From: Candidatus Multivoradales bacterium
GTDB lineage: Bacteria; Acidobacteriota; Thermoanaerobaculia; Multivoradales; JAHEKO01
Length of the DNA stretch: 64,000 nucleotides
NCBI GenBank assembly: GCA_965248055.1
Contig: CBDFIJ010000004.1
Span: forward strand, 3,072,001-3,136,000
Direction of reading: 5' to 3'
Shown: piece by piece, positions 20,130-59,267 of the stretch
Layout: each line of letters begins with the position of its first letter
Position numbering within the stretch: the stretch's first letter is position 1
Translations under genes and position numbers: made by a program
The notes under the pieces: model-generated
Seen by the model: only the letters and a program-made list of their open reading frames with translations
The model's database searches: none
Told to the model about the DNA's origin: nothing

Positions 20130-20352
20130 GGCTAGAGAACCGGCGAAAGTGGTCGGTTATTCCGCTCCGGTAGCCATCCCGAGGGAATGGTCGAGGGTAT
20201 CCAGCGCGGGAGCCCATAAAGGGCTCCCCTACATACAAGGCACCCCATGCTTCGCGTGGCCGTCTCGCGACAAAGCAGCGGCGATGGGTCTCTGGAGTTG
20301 ACCCGTCTTAGTGGACACTAAGAATAGGATCATTGGATCCAAGGAGGTGTTC

Positions 20353-20649
20353 ATGTCAGTAGTTCGTCGTCGATTTAGCAAAGAGTTCAAACGAGAAGCA
20401 GTACATCAGGCTCTGGAAAGCGATCTGCCGATGTCGTCAGTGGCTCGAGATCTAGACATCCGGCCGAATCTTCTGGGCAGGTGGAAGCAGCAGTATTTGG
20501 AGGACCCTGATCAAGCGTTTCCCGGCGAGGGGCGTTTGCAGCCGGAGCAAGAGGAGGTGCGTCGTCTTCGCCGAGAGCTGGCGATGATGAAAGAGGAGCA
20601 CGCGATCCTAAAAAAAGCGGTGGCGATCTTCTCGGATCGACGGCGATGA
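20353..20649 (+). CDS. IS3 transposase OrfA (HTH)
   Basis: RRRFSKEFKREAV; A7G slippery site 20610-20617; ATGA overlap with OrfB. Confidence 0.92.
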   Translation: MSVVRRRFSKEFKREAVHQALESDLPMSSVARDLDIRPNLLGRWKQQYLEDPDQAFPGEGRLQPEQEEVRRLRRELAMMKEEHAILKKAVAIFSDRRR

Positions 20650-21545
20650 GATTTGATTTCATCCGCCGTCATCGGCGCGAGCATTCTGTGCGCGTCATGT
20701 GTCGTGTTCTGGAGGTATCACCGAGCGGTTATTACGCCTGGGTACGTCGTCCAGAGTGCCGACGTGGCCGGGAAGATCGCCGCCTTTTGACCCAGATTCG
20801 CATGATTCACTCGGAGAGTCGGCGGACGTATGGAAGCCCTAGAATCCATGGTGAGTTGCGAGACCGGGGTTTTTGCCACAGCCGCAAGCGTGTGACTCGC
20901 TTGATGCGCAGTCACGGCATTCGCTCAATACGGGCCAAGCAGTTTCGGGTAACGACGCAGTCGAAACATAAGCATCCGGTGGCTGCGAATGTATTGGATC
21001 GCCGCTTCGAGGTCGAAGATCCCAATCATGTGTGGTTAAGCGACATCACCTACATTCCCACCACTGAAGGCTGGCTGTACTTGGCAGCGATCATGGACCT
21101 TGGGTCCCGGCGTATTGTTGGTTTCTCGACCAGTACTCGTCTGACCCAGGATCTGACTCTACGGGCTCTGGACAGTGCGCTCTATGAGCGCCGCCCAGAT
21201 CCTGGGAGGCTGTTGCACCATTCTGATCGCGGTAGTCAGTACGCAGCGTCTGACTATCGCAAAAAACTCAAAGATGCCCGCATCACGGTGAGCATGAGCC
21301 GCAAGGGCAATTGCTGGGACAACGCACCGATGGAGAGCTTCTTTGCCAGCTTGAAGACCGAGCGGGTGCATCATGTGCGCTACACCAGCCGTCGCCAAGC
21401 TCAACGAGATCTATTCGATTACATCGAGATCTTCTACAACCGTAAACGACGCCACTCAAGCCTCGGAGGCTTGAGTCCTGTCGCCTACGAAGACCGACTC
21501 GCTGCCTCGGCAACGGTCGTCAACCAAACGGCTCTCCCTCAATGA
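20646..21545 (+). CDS. IS3 transposase OrfB (DDE integrase core)
   Basis: WLSDITYI, HHSDRGSQY, CWDNAPMESFF. Confidence 0.95.
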   Translation: MRFDFIRRHRREHSVRVMCRVLEVSPSGYYAWVRRPECRRGREDRRLLTQIRMIHSESRRTYGSPRIHGELRDRGFCHSRKRVTRLMRSHGIRSIRAKQFRVTTQSKHKHPVAANVLDRRFEVEDPNHVWLSDITYIPTTEGWLYLAAIMDLGSRRIVGFSTSTRLTQDLTLRALDSALYERRPDPGRLLHHSDRGSQYAASDYRKKLKDARITVSMSRKGNCWDNAPMESFFASLKTERVHHVRYTSRRQAQRDLFDYIEIFYNRKRRHSSLGGLSPVAYEDRLAASATVVNQTALPQ

Positions 21546-21616
21546 GAGCTAAACTATGTGTCCACCAAAACGGGGCAGCTTCACTCCTTGCGGTATTGGC
21601 CAACGGTGGTTCCAGG

Positions 21617-21831
21617 GCTTCTTCATCGTTTTCTCCTTTCGGTTACACTGTCCCTTCGGCTCCCTGACCTTGGGTAACTCTCGCACCGACCTTGTCAATA
21701 CAGGCTCTACGGCCTCAGATTCTTTCCGGCGTTTGAGAGCTAGGGCAGGGAGCTGATCTACGTACAGGCTCAGGGCCTAAGGGGAGGGACAGCTTCCCTG
21801 CCGAAGAGACTCATCTCCACAAACATACAAG
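21617..21831 (-). ncRNA. Orphan IS110 left end carrying a bridge RNA; recombinase ORF truncated after MKKP
   Basis: Inverted near-copy of 57150-57365; guide CCCTCCCCT (21788-21780) equals its own flank (21838-21830). Confidence 0.8.
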
Positions 21832-21842
21832 GGGAGGGGGGT

Positions 21843-23609
21843 TTACCCCCTCCCGAGCTGTTCCCCGCCGTCAGCCAGATTCCGATGCTGATACAACTCC
21901 CCATCTTCGAATCCCAATTTCCGGTAGTAGTTTCGGGTTCCGACCGCGGAAATGACAGCAAGGTCTCGATAGCCGGCAGCCCGAGCGATTTCGACCGCAC
22001 GTTCGGTGAGCGCAGTACCAAGACCCTGGTGTTGGGTTCTTGACCCCGGCTCAGCCTGCCAGTCCACCACCTGGCCGTAGACGTGGACTTCGCGAATCAT
22101 CGCGCTGTTTTGGATCTCCGGGATGGGCACTGGTTGCTTGGGCAGGCTCAGGCGCAAGAAGCCGGCGATCTGGTCGCTCTCGGTGACGAACTCGAGAAAC
22201 ACTTGGGGCCCGATCGACGAGTCGTACTTGGTGTCGCGCAATTGCAATGCTGAACGTCGCACGCTCTTGCCACGAGTCTCACGAGCCCGGATTTCGACGT
22301 TGATTTTCCCCAGTGCCTCCAGCCTGGCTTCGGCGACCTCTCGCAGATTGGTCACCCGGTTGCCGTCGACGATGTCGCCGCCGGGGATGTCGCGGATGAC
22401 GCGAGTCAAACGGCAGTAGCGGGGTGTGGCTTCCATACAGGCCGCCAAGACCTCGACTAGTTCTTCCTCATCGTAGGGGCGCCAACGACCGTCTTGGTAG
22501 TAGCCCATCAATTCCGCACTCTCAATCAGGCTGCAGGGGTAGATCTTAAGTTCGTCGGGACGGAAGTCGGGATCGTCGAACATGCGCCGGTAATCTTCGA
22601 TGTCGGCTTGCGGACTCGAGCCGTAGAGATTGGCCATCCAGTGCCCGTGGATCTTGAAACCGGCCGCACGCAAACGTTGGACCGCGCTACGCGAGGCGGC
22701 AACGTCATGCCCCCGGTGGTTGGCTTTCAGCACCGCGTCGTTGAGACTTTGAAATCCGATCTGGACTTTGGTGGCTCCCAGGCGGCGCAAACGTGTGATC
22801 TCTGCGTCATCCAGATGATCAGGCCGGGTTTCCAGCACCAACCCGACGCAGCGACTGCCTGCCTCTTCATTGGTTGTTTGGGCAGTAGATAACTGCTGCC
22901 AGGTTGCTGCTCCGGCAAGTTGGTCCATTCCGTTTCGGCGCACCACCTGGTTGTAGTTGTCTTGAGCGATCGTCTCACCACGGACCCGGTCCTCGATCGC
23001 TTCATAGCCGGTCGACGGCAAATCGGGAAGATCCAGGCGGTCGCTGGGGAGAAAGTCGTTCATCGCCTCAAAGCAGCGGAGCACCAACCAAATCTGATAT
23101 TCCTCGGGATAAGACGACCAGGTTCCGCCCAAAACGATCAGCTCGACCTTGTTGACCGAGTGGCCATTGTTGTAAAACGCTTGCAGTCGGGATGCGGTTT
23201 GTCGGTAGGGATCGAAACGATGTTCAGCGGCGCGCTGGGCCCCGGGTTCGTCTGATAGGTAACTCTTGGGCATGCGCACGTCGCTGGGGCAGAAGATGCA
23301 CTTTCCCGGACACGGATAGGGCGGTGTCAAGACCGTCACCGGCGCTACCCCGGAAAGGGTGCGGATCGGTTTCATCCGCACCTTGTCGAGAAACACAGAT
23401 TCGTCCCGTTGCCAGTTGCGCACCTGATTTAGGTGGCGAAAGCCGCGGATGATCTCGGCCTTGGAGTAGAAGCCGCCTTCTTGTTTTGGATGGGCGCGGA
23501 GAATTCTCGCCCACGCCGCATTGTCGAGTCCGGTGGCGGTATCAACCGCCTGGACGATTCCCTCGATCGCCTGTTCGTGCTGCTGAGGATCGAAGGTGTA
23601 GACACTCAC
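21843..23609 (-). CDS. elp3: Elp3/KAT9-type radical SAM + GNAT tRNA U34 carboxymethyltransferase
   Basis: KPIRTLSGVAPVTV, CPGKCIFCP, MPKSYLSDEPG, LETRPD, PDELKIYP, IREVHVYG, QHQGLG; start chosen at GTG 23609 (ORF open to 23705). Confidence 0.88.
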   Translation of the reverse strand: MSVYTFDPQQHEQAIEGIVQAVDTATGLDNAAWARILRAHPKQEGGFYSKAEIIRGFRHLNQVRNWQRDESVFLDKVRMKPIRTLSGVAPVTVLTPPYPCPGKCIFCPSDVRMPKSYLSDEPGAQRAAEHRFDPYRQTASRLQAFYNNGHSVNKVELIVLGGTWSSYPEEYQIWLVLRCFEAMNDFLPSDRLDLPDLPSTGYEAIEDRVRGETIAQDNYNQVVRRNGMDQLAGAATWQQLSTAQTTNEEAGSRCVGLVLETRPDHLDDAEITRLRRLGATKVQIGFQSLNDAVLKANHRGHDVAASRSAVQRLRAAGFKIHGHWMANLYGSSPQADIEDYRRMFDDPDFRPDELKIYPCSLIESAELMGYYQDGRWRPYDEEELVEVLAACMEATPRYCRLTRVIRDIPGGDIVDGNRVTNLREVAEARLEALGKINVEIRARETRGKSVRRSALQLRDTKYDSSIGPQVFLEFVTESDQIAGFLRLSLPKQPVPIPEIQNSAMIREVHVYGQVVDWQAEPGSRTQHQGLGTALTERAVEIARAAGYRDLAVISAVGTRNYYRKLGFEDGELYQHRNLADGGEQLGRG

Positions 23610-55309: not shown

Positions 55310-55776
55310 ACGTCATCCCCGTAGGGAGGGGGTTTCGGGGGGTCGGGGATCTTTGTCAATGCCAGAGACGCTCGGTACGGGACTGCAATTGCCACTAGAT
55401 CCCGGCCCCGCGCCCTCGCACCCGCCGGGATGACGAGGGAATGGGTCCTGCCGGGGTGACGGAGCGGATCCCGGCTAGCGTCTCCTCAACCTGCGGGCGG
55501 GGATCAACCCCGCCCCTGCGGAGAGGGCGGTCGCCATCACATTCTTTGTACCCCGTCGCGATTATTGGCCGTAGGGAGCCGGCAATCCCATTTCTTGGTA
55601 GGGAGGGGTTTACCCCCTCCCACGGCTCATTCCGAAATTGTCGCCTTGAAACCTGCCCCCCACATCGTCATCCCCGAAGGTTGGGGGTCTTTGGGGGTCG
55701 GGGATCTTTCAAGCGTAGGGGCATGCGTGCTGCCCTGAGATCCCGGCCCCCCGTCGGCCCACCCGCCGGGATGACG
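55310..55776. repeat. Cluster of GTCATCCC and GTAG palindromic REP-like elements
   Basis: Two GTCATCCCC...GGGGATC / GATCCCGG...CGGGATGAC pairs and GTAGGGAGGGGTTTACCCCCTCC. Confidence 0.75.
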
Positions 55777-55866
55777 AAAGAAAAGACGAGGCGCCTTTTG
55801 TTGGTTTGGAGTTGACCCGTTTTAGTGGACACTAAGAATAGGATCATTGGATCTAAGGAGGTGTTC

Positions 55867-56163
55867 ATGTCAGTAGTTCGTCGTCGATTTAGCAAAGAGT
55901 TCAAACGAGAAGCAGTACATCAGGCTCTGGAAAGCGATCTGCCGATGTCGTCAGTGGCTCGAGATCTAGGCATCCGGCCGAATCTTCTGGGTAGGTGGAA
56001 GCAGCAGTACTTGGATGACCCAGACCAAGCGTTTCCCGGCGAGGGGCGTTTAAAGCCAGAGGAAGAGGAGTTACGTCGTCTTCGCCGCGAGCTGGCGATG
56101 ATGAGAGAGGAACACGCGATCCTAAAAAAAGCGGTGGCGATCTTCTCGGATCGACGACGATGA
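55867..56163 (+). CDS. IS3 transposase OrfA
   Basis: Paralog of 20353-20649. Confidence 0.92.
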   Translation: MSVVRRRFSKEFKREAVHQALESDLPMSSVARDLGIRPNLLGRWKQQYLDDPDQAFPGEGRLKPEEEELRRLRRELAMMREEHAILKKAVAIFSDRRR

Positions 56164-57059
56164 GATTCGATTTCATTCGCCGTCATCGGCGCGAGTATTC
56201 TGTACTCGTCATGTGTCGTGTGCTGGAGGTGTCACGCAGCGGCTATTACGCTTGGGTGCGTCGCCCAGAGTGCCGACGTGGCCGAGAAGATCGCCGACTT
56301 CTGACTCAGATTCGTATGATTCACTCCGAGAGTCGGCGGACGTATGGGAGCCCTAGAATCCATGGTGAGTTGCGAGACCAGGGGTTTTGCCACAGCCGCA
56401 AGCGTGTGACTCGGTTAATGCACAATCACGGCATTCGCTCAATACGGGCCAAGCAGTTTCGGGTAACGACGCAGTCGAAACATAAGCATCCGGTGGCTGC
56501 GAATGTATTGGACCGCCGTTTCGAGGTCGAAGATCCCAATCATGTGTGGTTGAGCGATATAACCTACATTCCCACCACTGAAGGCTGGCTGTACTTGGCA
56601 GCGATCATGGACCTTGGGTCCCGGCGTATTGTTGGTTTTTCGACCAGTACTCGTCTGACTCAGGATTTGACTCTACGGGCCCTGGAGAGCGCTCTCTATG
56701 AGCGCCGGCCAGATCCTGGCAGGCTCCTGCACCACTCTGATCGCGGTAGTCAGTACGCAGCGTCTGACTATCGCAAGAAACTCGAAGATGCCCGCATCAC
56801 GGTGAGTATGAGCCGTAAAGGCAACTGCTGGGACAACGCACCGATGGAGAGCTTCTTTGCCAGCTTGAAGACCGAGCGGGTGCATCATGTGCGCTATACC
56901 AGTCGTCGACAAGCTCAAAGAGACCTCTTCGATTACATCGAAATTTTCTACAACCGCAAGCGACGCCACTCAAGCCTCGGAGGCTTGAGTCCTGTCGCCT
57001 ATGAAGACCGACTCGCTGCTTTGGCAACGGTCGCTAACCAAACCGCTCTCGCTCAATGA
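56160..57059 (+). CDS. IS3 transposase OrfB
   Basis: Paralog of 20646-21545, DDE motifs intact. Confidence 0.95.
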   Translation: MRFDFIRRHRREYSVLVMCRVLEVSRSGYYAWVRRPECRRGREDRRLLTQIRMIHSESRRTYGSPRIHGELRDQGFCHSRKRVTRLMHNHGIRSIRAKQFRVTTQSKHKHPVAANVLDRRFEVEDPNHVWLSDITYIPTTEGWLYLAAIMDLGSRRIVGFSTSTRLTQDLTLRALESALYERRPDPGRLLHHSDRGSQYAASDYRKKLEDARITVSMSRKGNCWDNAPMESFFASLKTERVHHVRYTSRRQAQRDLFDYIEIFYNRKRRHSSLGGLSPVAYEDRLAALATVANQTALAQ

Positions 57060-57166
57060 GAGCTAAACTATGTGTCCACCAAAACGGGGCAGCTTCAGTT
57101 GTAGCTTTGGCCGGTCTCCGCAACCTTCGGGCGGGGATCAACCCCGCCCCTTGTATGTTTGTGGAG

Positions 57167-57345
57167 ATGAGTCTCTTCGGCAGGGAAGCTGTCCCGCCCC
57201 TTAGGCCCTGAGCCTGTACGTAGATCAGCTCCCTGCCTTACCTCTCGAACGCCGGAGAGAATCTGAGGCCCTAGAGCCTGCATTCACAAGGTCGGTGCGA
57301 GAGTTACCCAAGGTCAGGGAGCCGAAGGGACAGTGTAACCGAAAG
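57167..57345 (+). ncRNA. IS110 bridge RNA (boundaries approximate)
   Basis: Target guides CCCGCCCCT (57193) and CGTAG (57219); donor guides AGAGAATCT (57256) and ACAAG (57286), each pair inside a closing stem. Confidence 0.85.
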
Positions 57346-57354
57346 GAGAAAACG

Positions 57355-58359
57355 ATGAAGAAGCCACTGCCCTGCGGAATCGAAGTCAGCGCCAAGTCCT
57401 TTGAGCTATGTCTCAAGCTTGCCTCAGGCAAGCTTGAGAGGCGACAGTTTGCAAATACTGCGTCCGGTATTCGCCAGCTGGCCGCTTGGCTCAAGAGACA
57501 AGAACGGCCCGTTCAAGCGGTCCTGGAAGCCACCGGAGTGTACGGTCAAGATCTGACCTTCACTCTGTGCAAAACCACAGGTGTTGAGGTCATGGTTGCC
57601 AACCCTCGTGCTGCTCGCCGTTTCGCTGAAGCTTTGATGAAAAGAGCCAAGACCGACCGCATCGACGCGGAAATGCTTTGTCAGTTTGCTCAACGCATGC
57701 CGTTTGAAGAGTTCCAGCCACCTGGTGACCAAGAACTGGCCCTAAGGTCCATCACCCGCCGCATCCTGGCATTGACTCAACAACGAACAGAGGAGAAGAA
57801 CCGACTCCATGCTGCATCTGCCTCTAGAACGATTCCGGCAGCTGTAAGCCAAAGTCTTAATCGCCAAATCGTTGTACTGAATCGGGAAATCGATCGGCTC
57901 GACAAACAGGCACTCAAACTCATCAACAACCAGACCAAACTCAAGATACGTTATCAATTCCTGCTGAGTATCCCGGGAATCGGACCCAAGAGCGCATCTC
58001 GGATTCTTGCCGAACTCGCAGTGCTGCCCAAAGAGCTCACCCCTAGGCAATGGGTCGCTCATGCCGGACTCGATCCGAAACCGGTCGAATCCGGCTCCTC
58101 TGTCAACAAACCACGAAGAATCTCCAAGACCGGAAACTCACGCCTTAGACAGGCTCTCTACATGCCCGCTCTCTCGGCTGCGAGGGCCAATCCTCACTGT
58201 CGAAGTTTCTATCTCAGTCTCCAACAACGAGGACTAAAACCCATGCAAGCGATTGTCGCCATCATGAGAAAACTACTCCACGCCATTCATGGAATCTGGA
58301 CACACGCCACTGACTTTGACGCTACAAAGCTCTTCCCAAATGTCGTTATTAACCATTGA
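57355..58359 (+). CDS. IS110 DEDD-type recombinase
   Basis: GIEVS, LEATGVY, AKTDRIDA, SIPGIG, ESGSS, SKTGNSRLRQALY; AAGGAG RBS. Confidence 0.93.
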   Translation: MKKPLPCGIEVSAKSFELCLKLASGKLERRQFANTASGIRQLAAWLKRQERPVQAVLEATGVYGQDLTFTLCKTTGVEVMVANPRAARRFAEALMKRAKTDRIDAEMLCQFAQRMPFEEFQPPGDQELALRSITRRILALTQQRTEEKNRLHAASASRTIPAAVSQSLNRQIVVLNREIDRLDKQALKLINNQTKLKIRYQFLLSIPGIGPKSASRILAELAVLPKELTPRQWVAHAGLDPKPVESGSSVNKPRRISKTGNSRLRQALYMPALSAARANPHCRSFYLSLQQRGLKPMQAIVAIMRKLLHAIHGIWTHATDFDATKLFPNVVINH

Positions 58360-58529
58360 CCCCGAACAGAGAATCTACGGAGCGAGCGGTCGCTGTTACA
58401 TTTCTTGTAGGGGAGGGGTTTAGCCCCTCCCGGTTCTCTTGCAAGGTGGCACGAGTGTTCGGGCCGACGAATCACCAGCCAACAACACCAAGGACAAGCC
58501 GTTACAATTCGTAGCAGAGGGAAAGAACT

Positions 58530-59267
58530 ATGGAGTGGCTGAGCAACCCGGAAACTTGGATCGCATTGGCAACTTTGACCGCGGTCGAAATTGTTCTCGG
58601 AATTGACAATATTGTTTTCATCGCGGTGCTGGCGGGGCGCCTGCCACCGGAGCAACAGGGACGCGCTCGCACCCTTGGGCTCGCTGCTGCGATGCTCACT
58701 CGTATCCTGCTCTTGCTGTCGATTACTTGGGTGATGGGCTTGACCAAGCCGTTGTTTGAGGTGCTTGATTTTACCTTCTCCGGTCGCGATCTGATCTTGA
58801 TCGGCGGTGGGTTGTTTCTGTTGGGCAAGAGCACTCTGGAGATTCATCACAGTCTAGAAGGTGTGGATGGGGAAGTGCATACTAGAGTCGTGGCGTCCTT
58901 TGCGGGAGTGATCTTTCAGATCATGATCCTAGATATTGTTTTCTCCCTAGACTCGGTGATCACTGCGGTCGGTTTGGCGGACCAAGTTGGGGTGATGGTG
59001 GCAGCTATTGTGATCGCGGTGGCAGTGATGATGCTGTCCGCCGGGACCATTTCCAAGTTCATTGACGAACACCCGTCTTTGAAGATCTTGGCTCTATCAT
59101 TTCTCTTGTTGATCGGCATGAGCCTGGTCGCTGAAGGCTGGGAGTTCCATATCCCCAAGGGATACATCTACTTCGCGATGGCGTTTTCAATCTTTGTCGA
59201 GATTCTCAACTTGCGTCTGCGTCGCGGCCGGGCTGTCAAGCTGCACAAGCAGTTTGAAGACAAGTGA
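58530..59267 (+). CDS. TerC family membrane protein
   Basis: EIVLGIDNIVFI, LDIVFSLDSVITAVG, PKGYIYFAMAFS. Confidence 0.93.
   Translation: MEWLSNPETWIALATLTAVEIVLGIDNIVFIAVLAGRLPPEQQGRARTLGLAAAMLTRILLLLSITWVMGLTKPLFEVLDFTFSGRDLILIGGGLFLLGKSTLEIHHSLEGVDGEVHTRVVASFAGVIFQIMILDIVFSLDSVITAVGLADQVGVMVAAIVIAVAVMMLSAGTISKFIDEHPSLKILALSFLLLIGMSLVAEGWEFHIPKGYIYFAMAFSIFVEILNLRLRRGRAVKLHKQFEDK

What the first reader, a model, noticed from the sequence alone, without database searches (positions are those of the whole stretch)
57150..58379. IS621-like IS110 with a fully readable bridge RNA programmed for the host GTAG REP
Seen: left target guide CCCGCCCCT (57193-57201) equals the left flank plus core (57143-57151); CGTAG (57219-57223) is complementary to core plus right flank CTACG (58375-58379); AGAGAATCT (57256-57264) equals the right end (58368-58376); ACAAG (57286-57290) is complementary to CTTGT (57150-57154). 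Circularisation would join TTGACC (58356) to TATGTT with a 17-nt spacer. Established: this is the IS621 bridge-recombination architecture, here an ortholog with its own target and donor.
Basis: partly seen in the sequence, partly recalled or inferred. Interest (0 to 1): 0.8.

Follow-up and report, generated by a model that had tools for sequence, protein, structure and literature searches.

The report
IS110 insertion sequence with bridge RNA
This is an ordinary but very clean example of an IS110-type jumping gene whose own small guide RNA spells out both the host repeat it inserts into and its own ends, a mechanism already well described for IS621.

Summary
Window 57152-58376 is a 1,225-bp IS110-group insertion sequence. 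It holds a 334-aa recombinase gene (57355-58359; PF01548 + PF02371; NCBIfam 'IS110 family RNA-guided transposase'; PDB relatives ISCro4 and IS621) and a bridge RNA in the left end. The four guides sit in two internal loops closed by stems that covary across 68 related left ends. I added the two handshake dinucleotides, the discontiguous right donor guide, a 3-bp subterminal inverted repeat, and a -35/-10 promoter that exists only in the circular form.

The target is a small host family of GTAG-headed GC-rich hairpins (about 40-60 copies). The element sits at GT^AG, as IS621 does in E. coli REPs. A second copy, 1225/1225 identical, lies in another hairpin of this family. A diverged left-end fragment carries one changed base in its left target guide, and its own flank carries the same change.

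Not shown: expression, circle formation, current activity, or that the hairpins are RAYT-dependent REPs. Differences from IS621 are minor: no convincing 5' stem-loop, and Glu in place of the first Asp of DEDD (clade-wide).

Verdict: a new member of a known kind, of low to moderate interest.

The parts
57129..57149 (+). GC-rich stem-loop of the host REP-like repeat (8-bp arms, 5-nt loop). Its 3' arm is the left target.
   Evidence: 8 pairs, all G-C; member of the nhmmer repeat family.
57143..57151 (+). Left target (7 nt) plus left copy of the CT core
   Evidence: identical to the left target guide 57193-57201.
57152..58376 (+). The insertion sequence, 1,225 bp counted with one CT. The boundary is ambiguous by the 2-nt core, so 57150-58374 is equivalent.
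   Evidence: Second copy identical 1225/1225. In-silico excision restores the host repeat best with these boundaries. Paralogous uninterrupted site with a single CT.
57154..57159 (+). -10-like hexamer of the junction promoter (4 of 6 to consensus)
57157..57159 (+). Left arm of a 3-bp subterminal inverted repeat (partner 58365-58367)
   Evidence: The same position in relative L037 carries a compensating pair.
57166..57303 (+). Bridge RNA, minimal extent. The 5' end is inferred from the -10 hexamer; the 3' end is set at the close of the donor-loop stem and is not determined.
   Evidence: Inference. No RNA data.
57179..57237 (+). Target-binding loop module. Outer stem 57179-57191 with 57226-57237 (A57186 bulged); left target guide 57193-57201; inner hairpin 57203-57215; right target guide 57219-57223; handshake dinucleotide 57224-57225.
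   Evidence: Folds alone at -30.6 kcal/mol, z = -4.09. Helix 1 has compensatory changes in 9 of 12 pairs.
57242..57303 (+). Donor-binding loop module. Outer stem 57242-57247 and 57250-57254 with 57293-57303; left donor guide 57256-57264; inner hairpin 57266-57279; right donor guide 57281-57283 plus 57286-57290 (2-nt bulge); handshake dinucleotide 57291-57292.
   Evidence: -22.1 kcal/mol, z = -1.2, not significant alone. Helices 4-6 have compensatory changes in 11 of 15 pairs.
57304..57354 (+). Conserved 3' segment with a nearly invariant G-rich motif, followed by a GGAG ribosome-binding site at 57345-57348. Role unknown: bridge RNA tail or recombinase leader.
   Evidence: Invariant and nearly invariant columns in A2. 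No significant fold (z = +0.34).
57355..58359 (+). Recombinase gene, 334 aa. Catalytic positions E10, E58, D101, D104, S246.
58356..58361 (+). -35-like hexamer (5 of 6 to consensus) overlapping the stop codon 58357-58359
   Evidence: A TTG-starting hexamer stands at the same fixed place in 51 of 64 related right-end candidates.
58368..58376 (+). Left donor (last 7 nt of the element) plus right copy of the CT core
   Evidence: identical to the left donor guide.
58375..58379 (+). Core plus right target. With the core it forms the GTAG head of the host repeat on the minus strand.
58407..58431 (+). Second, intact REP-like unit (GTAG + hairpin), convergent with the occupied one
21613..21856 (-). 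Diverged left-end fragment of a sister element (96% identity over the left end). Its left target guide has T at position 4 and its own flank has T there too. It is cut off after about 4 codons of the recombinase gene and lies next to an IS3 copy.
55480..55550 (+). Paralogous uninterrupted copy of the target region, collinear with left flank + one CT + right flank. The first base after the core is G, not A.
   Evidence: 36 of 38 identical up to the CT; 27 of the first 35 columns identical after it, my count from the printed alignment.

Best explanation
Window 57152-58376 is an autonomous IS110-group insertion sequence (bridge recombinase element).

By analogy with IS621, it leaves the chromosome as a circle in which the right end is joined to the left end across one CT. 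That junction creates a sigma-70-type promoter, with the -35 in the right end and the -10 in the left end. The promoter drives a non-coding bridge RNA of about 140 nt from the left end.

The RNA has two internal loops. The first (57193-57225) pairs with both strands of a host GTAG-headed hairpin repeat around the CT core. The second (57256-57292) pairs with both strands of the element's own right-end/left-end junction. Recombinase dimers bound to the two loops then bring target and donor together. They exchange the strands next to CT through a phosphoserine intermediate (S246, with E10/E58/D101/D104 holding Mg2+).

Shown here:
- the element, its boundaries and a second identical copy;
- the guide-target and guide-donor matches;
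- their position in covariation-supported internal loops;
- the conserved placement of the promoter halves;
- the repeat nature of the target.

Inferred from IS621 and not shown here: transcription, circle formation, chemistry and present activity.
For: Protein:
- PF01548 at 2.3e-27 and PF02371 at 9.1e-22.
- NF033542 'IS110 family RNA-guided transposase' at 225.6 bits against a cut-off of 140.
- Solved relatives ISCro4 (9t56) at 8.9e-49 and IS621 (8wt6) at 1.4e-45, over about 320 residues.
- The IS621 catalytic positions E60, D102, D105 and S241 are kept as E58, D101, D104 and S246. These are invariant or nearly so in 120 homologues.

Guides: four matches are exact at the stated coordinates. 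I added three features from the published IS621 model.
- The dinucleotide after the right target guide (57224-57225) pairs with donor positions 6-7.
- The first base after the right donor guide (57291) pairs with target position 7.
- The right donor guide pairs discontiguously, with 3 + 5 nt around a 2-nt bulge.
The model is read from PMC11208158 and PMC11208160 (passages).

Structure, on 68 related left ends:
- The 31 pairs I drew are 81.4% paired, against 32-55% when the partners are slid.
- 20 pairs show compensatory changes.
- 0 of 500 shuffles reach the observed values.

Family-wide guide/target tracking:
- The left flank matches the locus's own loop with at most 1 mismatch in 21 of 48 loci, against 30 of 2,246 cross-pairings.
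- The right flank does so in 24 of 39, against 345 of 1,452.

Within the genome:
- A sister left-end fragment has a single changed base in the left target guide, and its own flank has the same change.
- The second full copy is 1225/1225 identical and lies in another hairpin of the same family.
- Exact in-silico excision restores the repeat profile score: 22.3 bits against 12.8-18.2 for wrong boundaries at copy 1. Copy 2 rises from 28.6 bits occupied to 37.5 bits excised.

Promoter:
- The hexamers would be 17 nt apart in the circle.
- A TTG-starting hexamer stands at the same fixed distance from the core in 51 of 64 related right-end candidates.
- No promoter-like site was found in the linear copy.
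Against: - No RNA run holds the locus, and the public runs are kept only as contigs, which showed no joints. Expression and circles are therefore untested.
- The first residue of the DEDD motif is Glu, not Asp. D11A abolishes IS621 activity (PMC11208158, passage), and D-to-E has not been tested. The Glu is shared by 88 of 120 nearest homologues.
- The donor-loop module alone does not fold better than shuffles (z = -1.2).
- The whole left end folded as one piece gives a different minimum-energy structure (z = -1.08).
- The 5' stem-loop of the IS621 consensus is not evident. There is only a -3.5 kcal/mol hairpin, z = -0.93, and it overlaps the predicted start site.
- The second copy's target mismatches the left target guide at position 4.
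- The second handshake base of the donor loop does not pair with the target.
- The family-wide tracking counts rest on crude automatic boundaries. Many rows miss: 27 of 48 left flanks and 15 of 39 right flanks have 2 or more mismatches.
Confidence: 0.93

Rival explanations
1. The element is a correct but dead relic. The guide matches record a past insertion, and the Glu at the first DEDD position, or another defect, has inactivated the recombinase.
For: E10 replaces the Asp that is essential in IS621 (PMC11208158, passage). Three of the five loci derived from this element in the genome are fragments or stubs. No joints were seen in the public contigs, though contigs drop rare forms.
Against: Two copies are identical over 1,225 bp at different hairpins, which points to recent transposition. 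The reading frame is intact. Glu stands at this position in 88 of 120 nearest homologues, several of which occur in more than one copy per genome, so it is a clade trait and not a lesion.
Confidence: 0.12
2. The target is not a true REP (a repeat spread and maintained by a REP-associated tyrosine transposase). It is another kind of short GC-rich hairpin repeat, for instance part of a larger composite intergenic repeat, that merely carries a GTAG-like head.
For: The family has only about 40-60 profile hits and is clustered at a few loci. The 13 Y1-transposase hits score 52.8-57.7 bits against the NCBIfam RAYT model, below its cut-off of 80. They are 300+ aa long and none lies next to the hairpins. 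A second repeat of about 115 nt often lies beside the hairpins.
Against: The form is that of a REP: a GTAG head, then a palindrome with a short loop, no T-run, convergent pairs (57129-57149 with 58407-58431), and presence in a same-genus genome that lacks the IS. The insertion point at GT^AG is the same as for IS621 in E. coli REPs (PMC11208160, passage giving the REP query sequences and the natural target).
Confidence: 0.35
3. The left end is only a leader of the recombinase mRNA, and the matches to flank and ends are coincidental or reflect terminal repeats.
For: The whole-UTR fold is not better than shuffles. Rfam holds no matching family.
Against: There are two exact 9-mers and two 5-mers at the four positions predicted by homology. 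The stems covary. Guide and flank track each other across loci and within this genome.
Confidence: 0.01

Closest known systems
IS621 of Escherichia coli (IS110 group; bridge RNA-guided recombinase; PDB 8wt6)
   Same: - Two-domain recombinase.
- Bridge RNA in a long left end with two internal loops.
- A 9-nt left guide that includes the CT core in both loops.
- A discontiguous right donor guide and an 'AU' handshake after the right target guide.
- Junction promoter and CT core.
- Insertion at GT^AG of a host palindromic repeat.
- A natural target mismatch at position 4 of the left target.
   Different: - Distant in sequence (E 1.4e-45; identity not computed).
- Different target: a C-rich hairpin arm.
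- The right target guide pairs 5 nt, not 4.
- No convincing 5' stem-loop, so the RNA is shorter (about 140 nt to the end of the donor stem, against 177 nt).
- Glu in place of D11.
- The position-4 mismatch here would be rG:dA, not the rG:dT wobble described for IS621.
ISCro4 (PDB 9t56)
   Same: Best solved relative by sequence (8.9e-49), with the same domain order and the same catalytic serine motif.
   Different: Has Asp at the first DEDD position. I did not examine its RNA or target.
ISPpu10 of Pseudomonas putida (bioRxiv 10.64898/2026.03.19.712850; abstract and section 7 read)
   Same: The target is a REP whose GC-rich 5' extension forms a stem-loop with the complement of the left target. 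Convergent pairs of targets occur. Here too the left target is the 3' arm of an 8-bp hairpin.
   Different: A different host and sequence. Whether the stem-loop adds specificity here is untested.
IS1111 group / seekRNA elements
   Same: The same recombinase family and the same idea of an RNA that reads target and donor.
   Different: Those carry the RNA in a long right end and have 7-17-bp subterminal inverted repeats. This element has a 203-nt left end, a 17-nt right end and a 3-bp inverted repeat, so it belongs to the IS110 group.

Membership tests
IS110 family, IS110 group (bridge recombinase elements) | Recombinase with an N-terminal RuvC-like DEDD domain (PF01548) and a C-terminal Tnp domain (PF02371) | tested here: met
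   96.1 and 77.7 bits, both over their cut-offs; NF033542, 225.6 bits against a cut-off of 140.
IS110 family, IS110 group (bridge recombinase elements) | Catalytic DEDD residues and the conserved serine | tested here: inconclusive
   E58, D101, D104 and S246 (followed by G247) align with IS621 E60, D102, D105 and S241. The first position is E10, not Asp. Glu stands there in 88 of 120 homologues and Asp in 32. Whether Glu is functionally equivalent is not tested.
IS110 family, IS110 group (bridge recombinase elements) | Long non-coding left end, short right end, no long terminal inverted repeats, 2-3-bp subterminal inverted repeat | tested here: met
   The left end is 203 nt (57152-57354). The right end is 17 nt after the stop codon. 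The 3-bp inverted repeat is 58365-58367 with 57157-57159.
IS110 family, IS110 group (bridge recombinase elements) | Bridge RNA: two stem-loops with internal loops, the first complementary to both strands of the target and the second to both strands of the donor, each including the core | tested here: met
IS110 family, IS110 group (bridge recombinase elements) | 5' stem-loop preceding the target loop (IS621 consensus) | tested here: not met
   Only 27 nt lie between the left end and the target-loop stem. The one hairpin is -3.5 kcal/mol, z = -0.93, and overlaps the predicted start site. This is a feature of the consensus and not, as far as I know, a requirement (recalled).
IS110 family, IS110 group (bridge recombinase elements) | Same dinucleotide core on both sides of the element and once in the empty site | tested here: met
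   CT at 57150-57151 and at 58375-58376. A single CT stands in the paralogous uninterrupted site 55516-55517 and in unoccupied hairpins.
IS110 family, IS110 group (bridge recombinase elements) | Promoter reconstituted across the circle junction | tested here: met
   In sequence only. Activity is not testable with these tools.
IS110 family, IS110 group (bridge recombinase elements) | Circular intermediate, expressed bridge RNA, RNA-dependent recombination | not testable with these tools
   No RNA holder is listed. Only contigs are available and they showed no joints.
REP (repetitive extragenic palindromic) elements as the target | Short imperfect palindrome with a 5' GTAG head, multicopy, between genes | tested here: met
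   (66 profile hits at E <= 10, 24 at E <= 0.002). A location between genes was seen for the copies I read and was not censused.
REP (repetitive extragenic palindromic) elements as the target | Associated REP-associated tyrosine transposase (RAYT), typically flanked by REPs | tested here: inconclusive
   13 Y1_Tnp hits. The two I scanned score 57.7 and 52.8 bits against NF047646, below its cut-off of 80. By coordinates, none lies beside a hairpin copy.

The most novel reading that the evidence does not exclude
Two sister bridge RNAs in one genome differ at position 4 of the left target guide, in step with the two commonest subtypes of the host hairpin (G-type and T-type). This would be a natural single-base retargeting event caught in place. 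It would suggest that guide and host repeat diversify together.

The 70-nt right-end stub at C4:433.8 kb is joined to a hairpin arm at an internal site of the element. It could be the scar of a bridge-RNA-guided 'half-match' deletion and not of ordinary illegitimate recombination.

Together with the clade-wide Glu at the first DEDD position and the missing 5' stem-loop, this would mark a compact natural variant of the system.
Probability: 0.2. Interest if true: 0.4.

Novelty: new member of a known kind. Interest (0 to 1): 0.25.

Why it matters
It adds one more cleanly annotated, compact bridge recombinase: 334 aa, a 1,225-bp element, and an RNA of roughly 140 nt that seems to lack the 5' stem-loop. 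It comes from a lineage far from E. coli, with target, donor, handshake guides and junction promoter all readable. That is useful for orthologue mining and as a worked example of annotation, but it does not change what is known. There are two points of modest biological interest. The first is the single-base guide/target covariation between sister elements within one genome. The second is the natural Asp-to-Glu variant of the first catalytic residue, shared by most of the clade.

Tried and rejected
- **Rfam.** Nothing reached any family's gathering score over 56900-58700, and the six weak rows are chance-level. No bridge RNA family matched.
- **Whole-UTR fold.** The minimum-energy structure of 57152-57340 was no better than shuffles and did not show the two-loop form. 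The modules were then folded separately and tested by covariation.
- **Related loci.** The search for related loci with the single protein found no relative. The second scan that is allowed in that case, run with alignment A1, gave 80 loci at 43-52% identity.
- **Empty site in a relative.** The same-genus genome G001 is only 74-80% identical in the flanking genes. Its corresponding intergenic region is different, so no orthologous empty site could be read. A paralogous uninterrupted site in the window and in-silico excision scored against the repeat profile were used instead.
- **Public runs.** No RNA holder is listed. The four runs come from one sample and one study, are kept as contigs, and may be the source of the assembly. 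Laid on 56950-58550 they gave no joints, and their loose ends sit only at repeat boundaries. This says nothing about circles or expression.
- **Automatic boundary finding in the related loci.** It is crude, and frame offsets of 1-2 nt inflate the mismatch counts. I did not refine it.
- **Literature.** The paper search for 'IS110' plus 'EEDD' found 0 papers. I did not otherwise search for the Asp-to-Glu variant. Supplementary files of the papers were not opened; the orthologue tables of PMC11208160 may already list this clade.
- **Not done.** No structure prediction, complex prediction, covariance model or atlas search was run, because sequence homology to solved structures was already decisive.
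Full report
**Observation.**
- 57193-57201 equals 57143-57151.
- 57219-57223 is the reverse complement of 58375-58379.
- 57256-57264 equals 58368-58376.
- 57286-57290 is the reverse complement of 57150-57154.

The two promoter hexamers (58356-58361 and 57154-57159) would stand 17 nt apart if the right end were joined to the left end across one CT. The right-end 9-mer occurs three times in the window against 0.34 expected. The left 9-mer occurs six times against 1.12 expected, and the extra copies lie in further units of the host repeat.

**The gene.** The open frame 57355-58359 (334 aa) starts after a GGAG ribosome-binding site at 57345-57348, and homologues start at the same Met.
- It carries PF01548 and PF02371.
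- It passes the NCBIfam model 'IS110 family RNA-guided transposase' at 225.6 bits against a cut-off of 140.
- It matches two solved bridge recombinases over nearly its whole length: ISCro4 at 8.9e-49 and IS621 at 1.4e-45.

I converted chain numbers to native IS621 numbers by an offset of 2, checked on D11, E60, D102/D105 and S241-G242. IS621 E60, D102, D105 and S241 then correspond to E58, D101, D104 and S246. IS621 D11 corresponds to E10. Among the 120 best homologues this position is Glu in 88 and Asp in 32, while E58, D104 and S246 are invariant. The Glu is therefore a trait of the clade and not a lesion in this copy. Its biochemical equivalence is untested.

**The RNA.** I aligned the region upstream of the recombinase gene from 75 loci that had enough upstream sequence (of 80 related loci, plus the window; five were too short). 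The left ends are plainly homologous and share a scaffold with variable blocks at the four guide positions.

On a second alignment of 68 distinct left ends (A2) I drew 31 base pairs from the window sequence. They comprise an outer stem and an inner hairpin for each of two modules. Counting them across the alignment gave:
- 81.4% of cells paired, against 32-55% when the 3' partners are slid by 1-3 columns;
- compensatory changes in 20 of 31 pairs;
- none of 500 shuffles reaching the observed values on any measure.

The structure was derived from one of the aligned sequences, which favours it on 'cells paired'. The compensatory counts are less affected by this.

Folded alone, the target module (57177-57239) takes the expected stem / internal loop / hairpin form at -30.6 kcal/mol, z = -4.09. 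The donor module (57240-57305) takes the same form at -22.1 kcal/mol but with z = -1.2.

Reading the published IS621 model (PMC11208160 and PMC11208158, passages found) against the sequence adds four details.
1. The two bases after the right target guide (57224-57225, AU) can pair with donor positions 6-7 (AT, 58373-58374). IS621 has the same handshake letters.
2. The first base after the right donor guide (57291, G) can pair with target position 7 (C, 57149). The next base (U) faces C and does not pair.
3. The right donor guide is discontiguous. 57286-57290 pairs with CT plus 3 nt, and after a 2-nt bulge 57281-57283 pairs with the next 3 nt of the left end. This matches the 'nine RNA bases to seven donor bases' pattern of IS621.
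4. A 3-bp inverted repeat flanks the donor (58365-58367 with 57157-57159). Relative L037 shows a compensating pair at the same place.

**What the guides track.** Element boundaries in the related loci were located with simple patterns. The 9 nt of left flank plus core then match the locus's own 5' loop side with 0-1 mismatch in 21 of 48 loci, against 30 of 2,246 cross-pairings. Core plus 4 nt of right flank match the 3' loop side with 0-1 mismatch in 24 of 39 loci, against 345 of 1,452. This started from 65 distinct target loops out of 75 rows; loci without a recognisable boundary were dropped. The misses are partly boundary errors of 1-2 nt.

The clearest case lies inside this genome. A 244-nt left-end fragment at window 21856-21613 (minus strand) is 96% identical to the left end (94% with flank). 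It has T in place of G at position 4 of its left target guide, and the hairpin arm next to it has T at the matching position. The fragment ends a few codons into the recombinase gene and lies next to an IS3 copy.

**Copies and boundaries.** The genome (3.4 Mb, four contigs) holds a second full copy on contig 4 at 3279505-3280729, identical at 1225 of 1225 positions and flanked by different DNA. Its left flank is a T-type hairpin, so the left target guide mismatches it at position 4. Its right flank begins with the same 3 nt as copy 1.

Two stubs also exist. One is the first 17 nt of the left end next to a hairpin at about 2,623.8 kb. The other is the last 70 nt of the right end at 433.8 kb, joined on its left to a hairpin arm at an internal site of the element.

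Removing 57152-58376 in silico restores the repeat profile score at the insertion site better than any shifted boundary: 22.3 bits against 12.8-18.2, and 16.5 for the occupied site. For copy 2 the score rises from 28.6 to 37.5 bits, close to the best intact units at 39.2.

A paralogous stretch at 55480-55550 is collinear with left flank, a single CT and right flank. It is 36 of 38 identical up to the CT, and 27 of the first 35 columns are identical after it, by my count from the printed alignment. Its first base after the core is G, not A, which would mismatch the right target guide.

At the DNA level the element was not found in 39 of the 40 relatives searched, including the same-genus genome. 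One same-order genome gave two short weak matches.

**The target.** The flank is a GC-rich hairpin (57129-57149, eight G-C pairs) followed by the core. On the minus strand, the core and the next two bases form a GTAG head in front of the palindrome. A profile built from nine strict copies finds 66 hits at E <= 10 and 24 at E <= 0.002, clustered at several loci. Several lie in the window, and an intact convergent unit stands at 58407-58431.

Of the 18 genome matches to the left target pattern plus CTAC, 4 have G at position 4, 11 have T and 3 have A. One unoccupied hairpin at 366.86 kb matches all 12 guide-specified bases. Short perfect matches to the hairpin occur at several places in the same-genus genome, which lacks the element, so the repeat belongs to the host.

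IS621 inserts at the equivalent point of E. coli REPs. Its natural target ends in ...CCTAC, and the REP query sequences end in ...GGCCTAC(G) (PMC11208160, passages). A GC-rich stem-loop 5' of the left target is reported as a specificity element for ISPpu10 (bioRxiv 10.64898/2026.03.19.712850, abstract and section 7).

A RAYT partner is not established. There are 13 Y1-transposase hits. The two I scanned fall below the NCBIfam RAYT cut-off (57.7 and 52.8 bits against 80), and none lies beside a hairpin.

**Promoter.** In the linear copy the hexamer 17 nt upstream of the -10 is GC-rich and unlike a -35, and the consensus scan finds no promoter in 56950-58550. In the circle the -35 (5 of 6) comes from the right end, where it overlaps the stop codon. 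At the same fixed distance from the core, 51 of 64 related right-end candidates start with TTG and 32 with TTGAC. The candidates were picked by a pattern for the donor end, not for the hexamer.

**Differences from IS621.**
- The stretch between the left end and the target-loop stem is only 27 nt. Its one hairpin is weak and overlaps the predicted start site, so the 5' stem-loop of the consensus is not evident.
- The distance between the two core-pairing G residues is 67 nt against 85 in IS621 (numbers from PMC11208158).
- The right target guide pairs 5 nt, not 4.
- A conserved G-rich segment follows the donor stem (57304-57345; nearly invariant columns in A2). Its role is unknown.

**Mechanism and confidence.** The most likely reading, at about 0.93, is an IS110-group element that uses its left-end bridge RNA to insert at GT^AG of the host hairpin repeat, exactly as described for IS621. 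Recent activity is likely, given two identical copies, but it is not shown. Recent work on how such elements excise is relevant, and I read it as abstracts only. It reports weak bridge RNA expression from integrated copies, excision complexes bound across both loops, and donor-only 'half-match' excision (PMC13626964; bioRxiv 10.64898/2026.08.31.748434).

**Verdict.** This is a new member of a known kind, with interest about 0.25.

Noticed in passing
window 55816-57097 and 20293-21583; contig 4 142102-143383: An IS3-family element of about 1,282 bp, with overlapping ORFs of 112 and 299 aa (HTH_Tnp_1; rve). It is present in three copies: two at 100% identity and one at 93%. One copy ends 55 nt before the IS110 element. 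Another abuts the truncated sister left-end fragment, so both IS110 loci in the window have an IS3 neighbour.
   Followed up: partly
recombinase residue 10 (window 57382-57384): The first residue of the DEDD motif is Glu. Among the 120 nearest homologues it is Glu in 88 and Asp in 32. A full-text search for IS110 with 'EEDD' found no paper.
   Followed up: partly
contig 4 433766-433875 (locus L004/L109): A stub holding the last 70 nt of the right end is joined on its left to a host hairpin arm at an internal site of the element (about window 58307-58309), where a few bases are shared. It could be an ordinary microhomology deletion or a guide-assisted recombination at a pseudo-site.
   Followed up: no
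contig 4 804945, 1145015, 1379158, 2104384 (loci L019-L022) and 3287963 (L023): There is a second IS110-family element in four copies with equal scores, plus a fifth, different one. Three of the four copies lie 1.0-2.3 kb from a 300-340-aa Y1_Tnp (IS200-like, RAYT-like) gene, and two of these pairs look like mirror-image duplicates.
   Followed up: no
window 55657-55782 and dozens of sites on contig 4 (e.g. 1044564-1047324, 2865988-2866863): An intergenic repeat of about 115 nt with 20-nt inverted arms. It occurs many times, partly in tandem arrays with a period of about 200 nt, and often lies beside the GTAG hairpins.
   Followed up: no
window 57304-57345: A segment after the donor-loop stem is conserved across the clade, with a nearly invariant G-rich motif. 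It has no significant fold in this sequence. It may belong to the bridge RNA or to the recombinase leader.
   Followed up: no
contigs C1-C3 of the genome: Three small contigs (14.8, 16.7 and 28.4 kb) have 39-43% G+C, against 57% for the main contig. They may be plasmids, phage or contamination.
   Followed up: no
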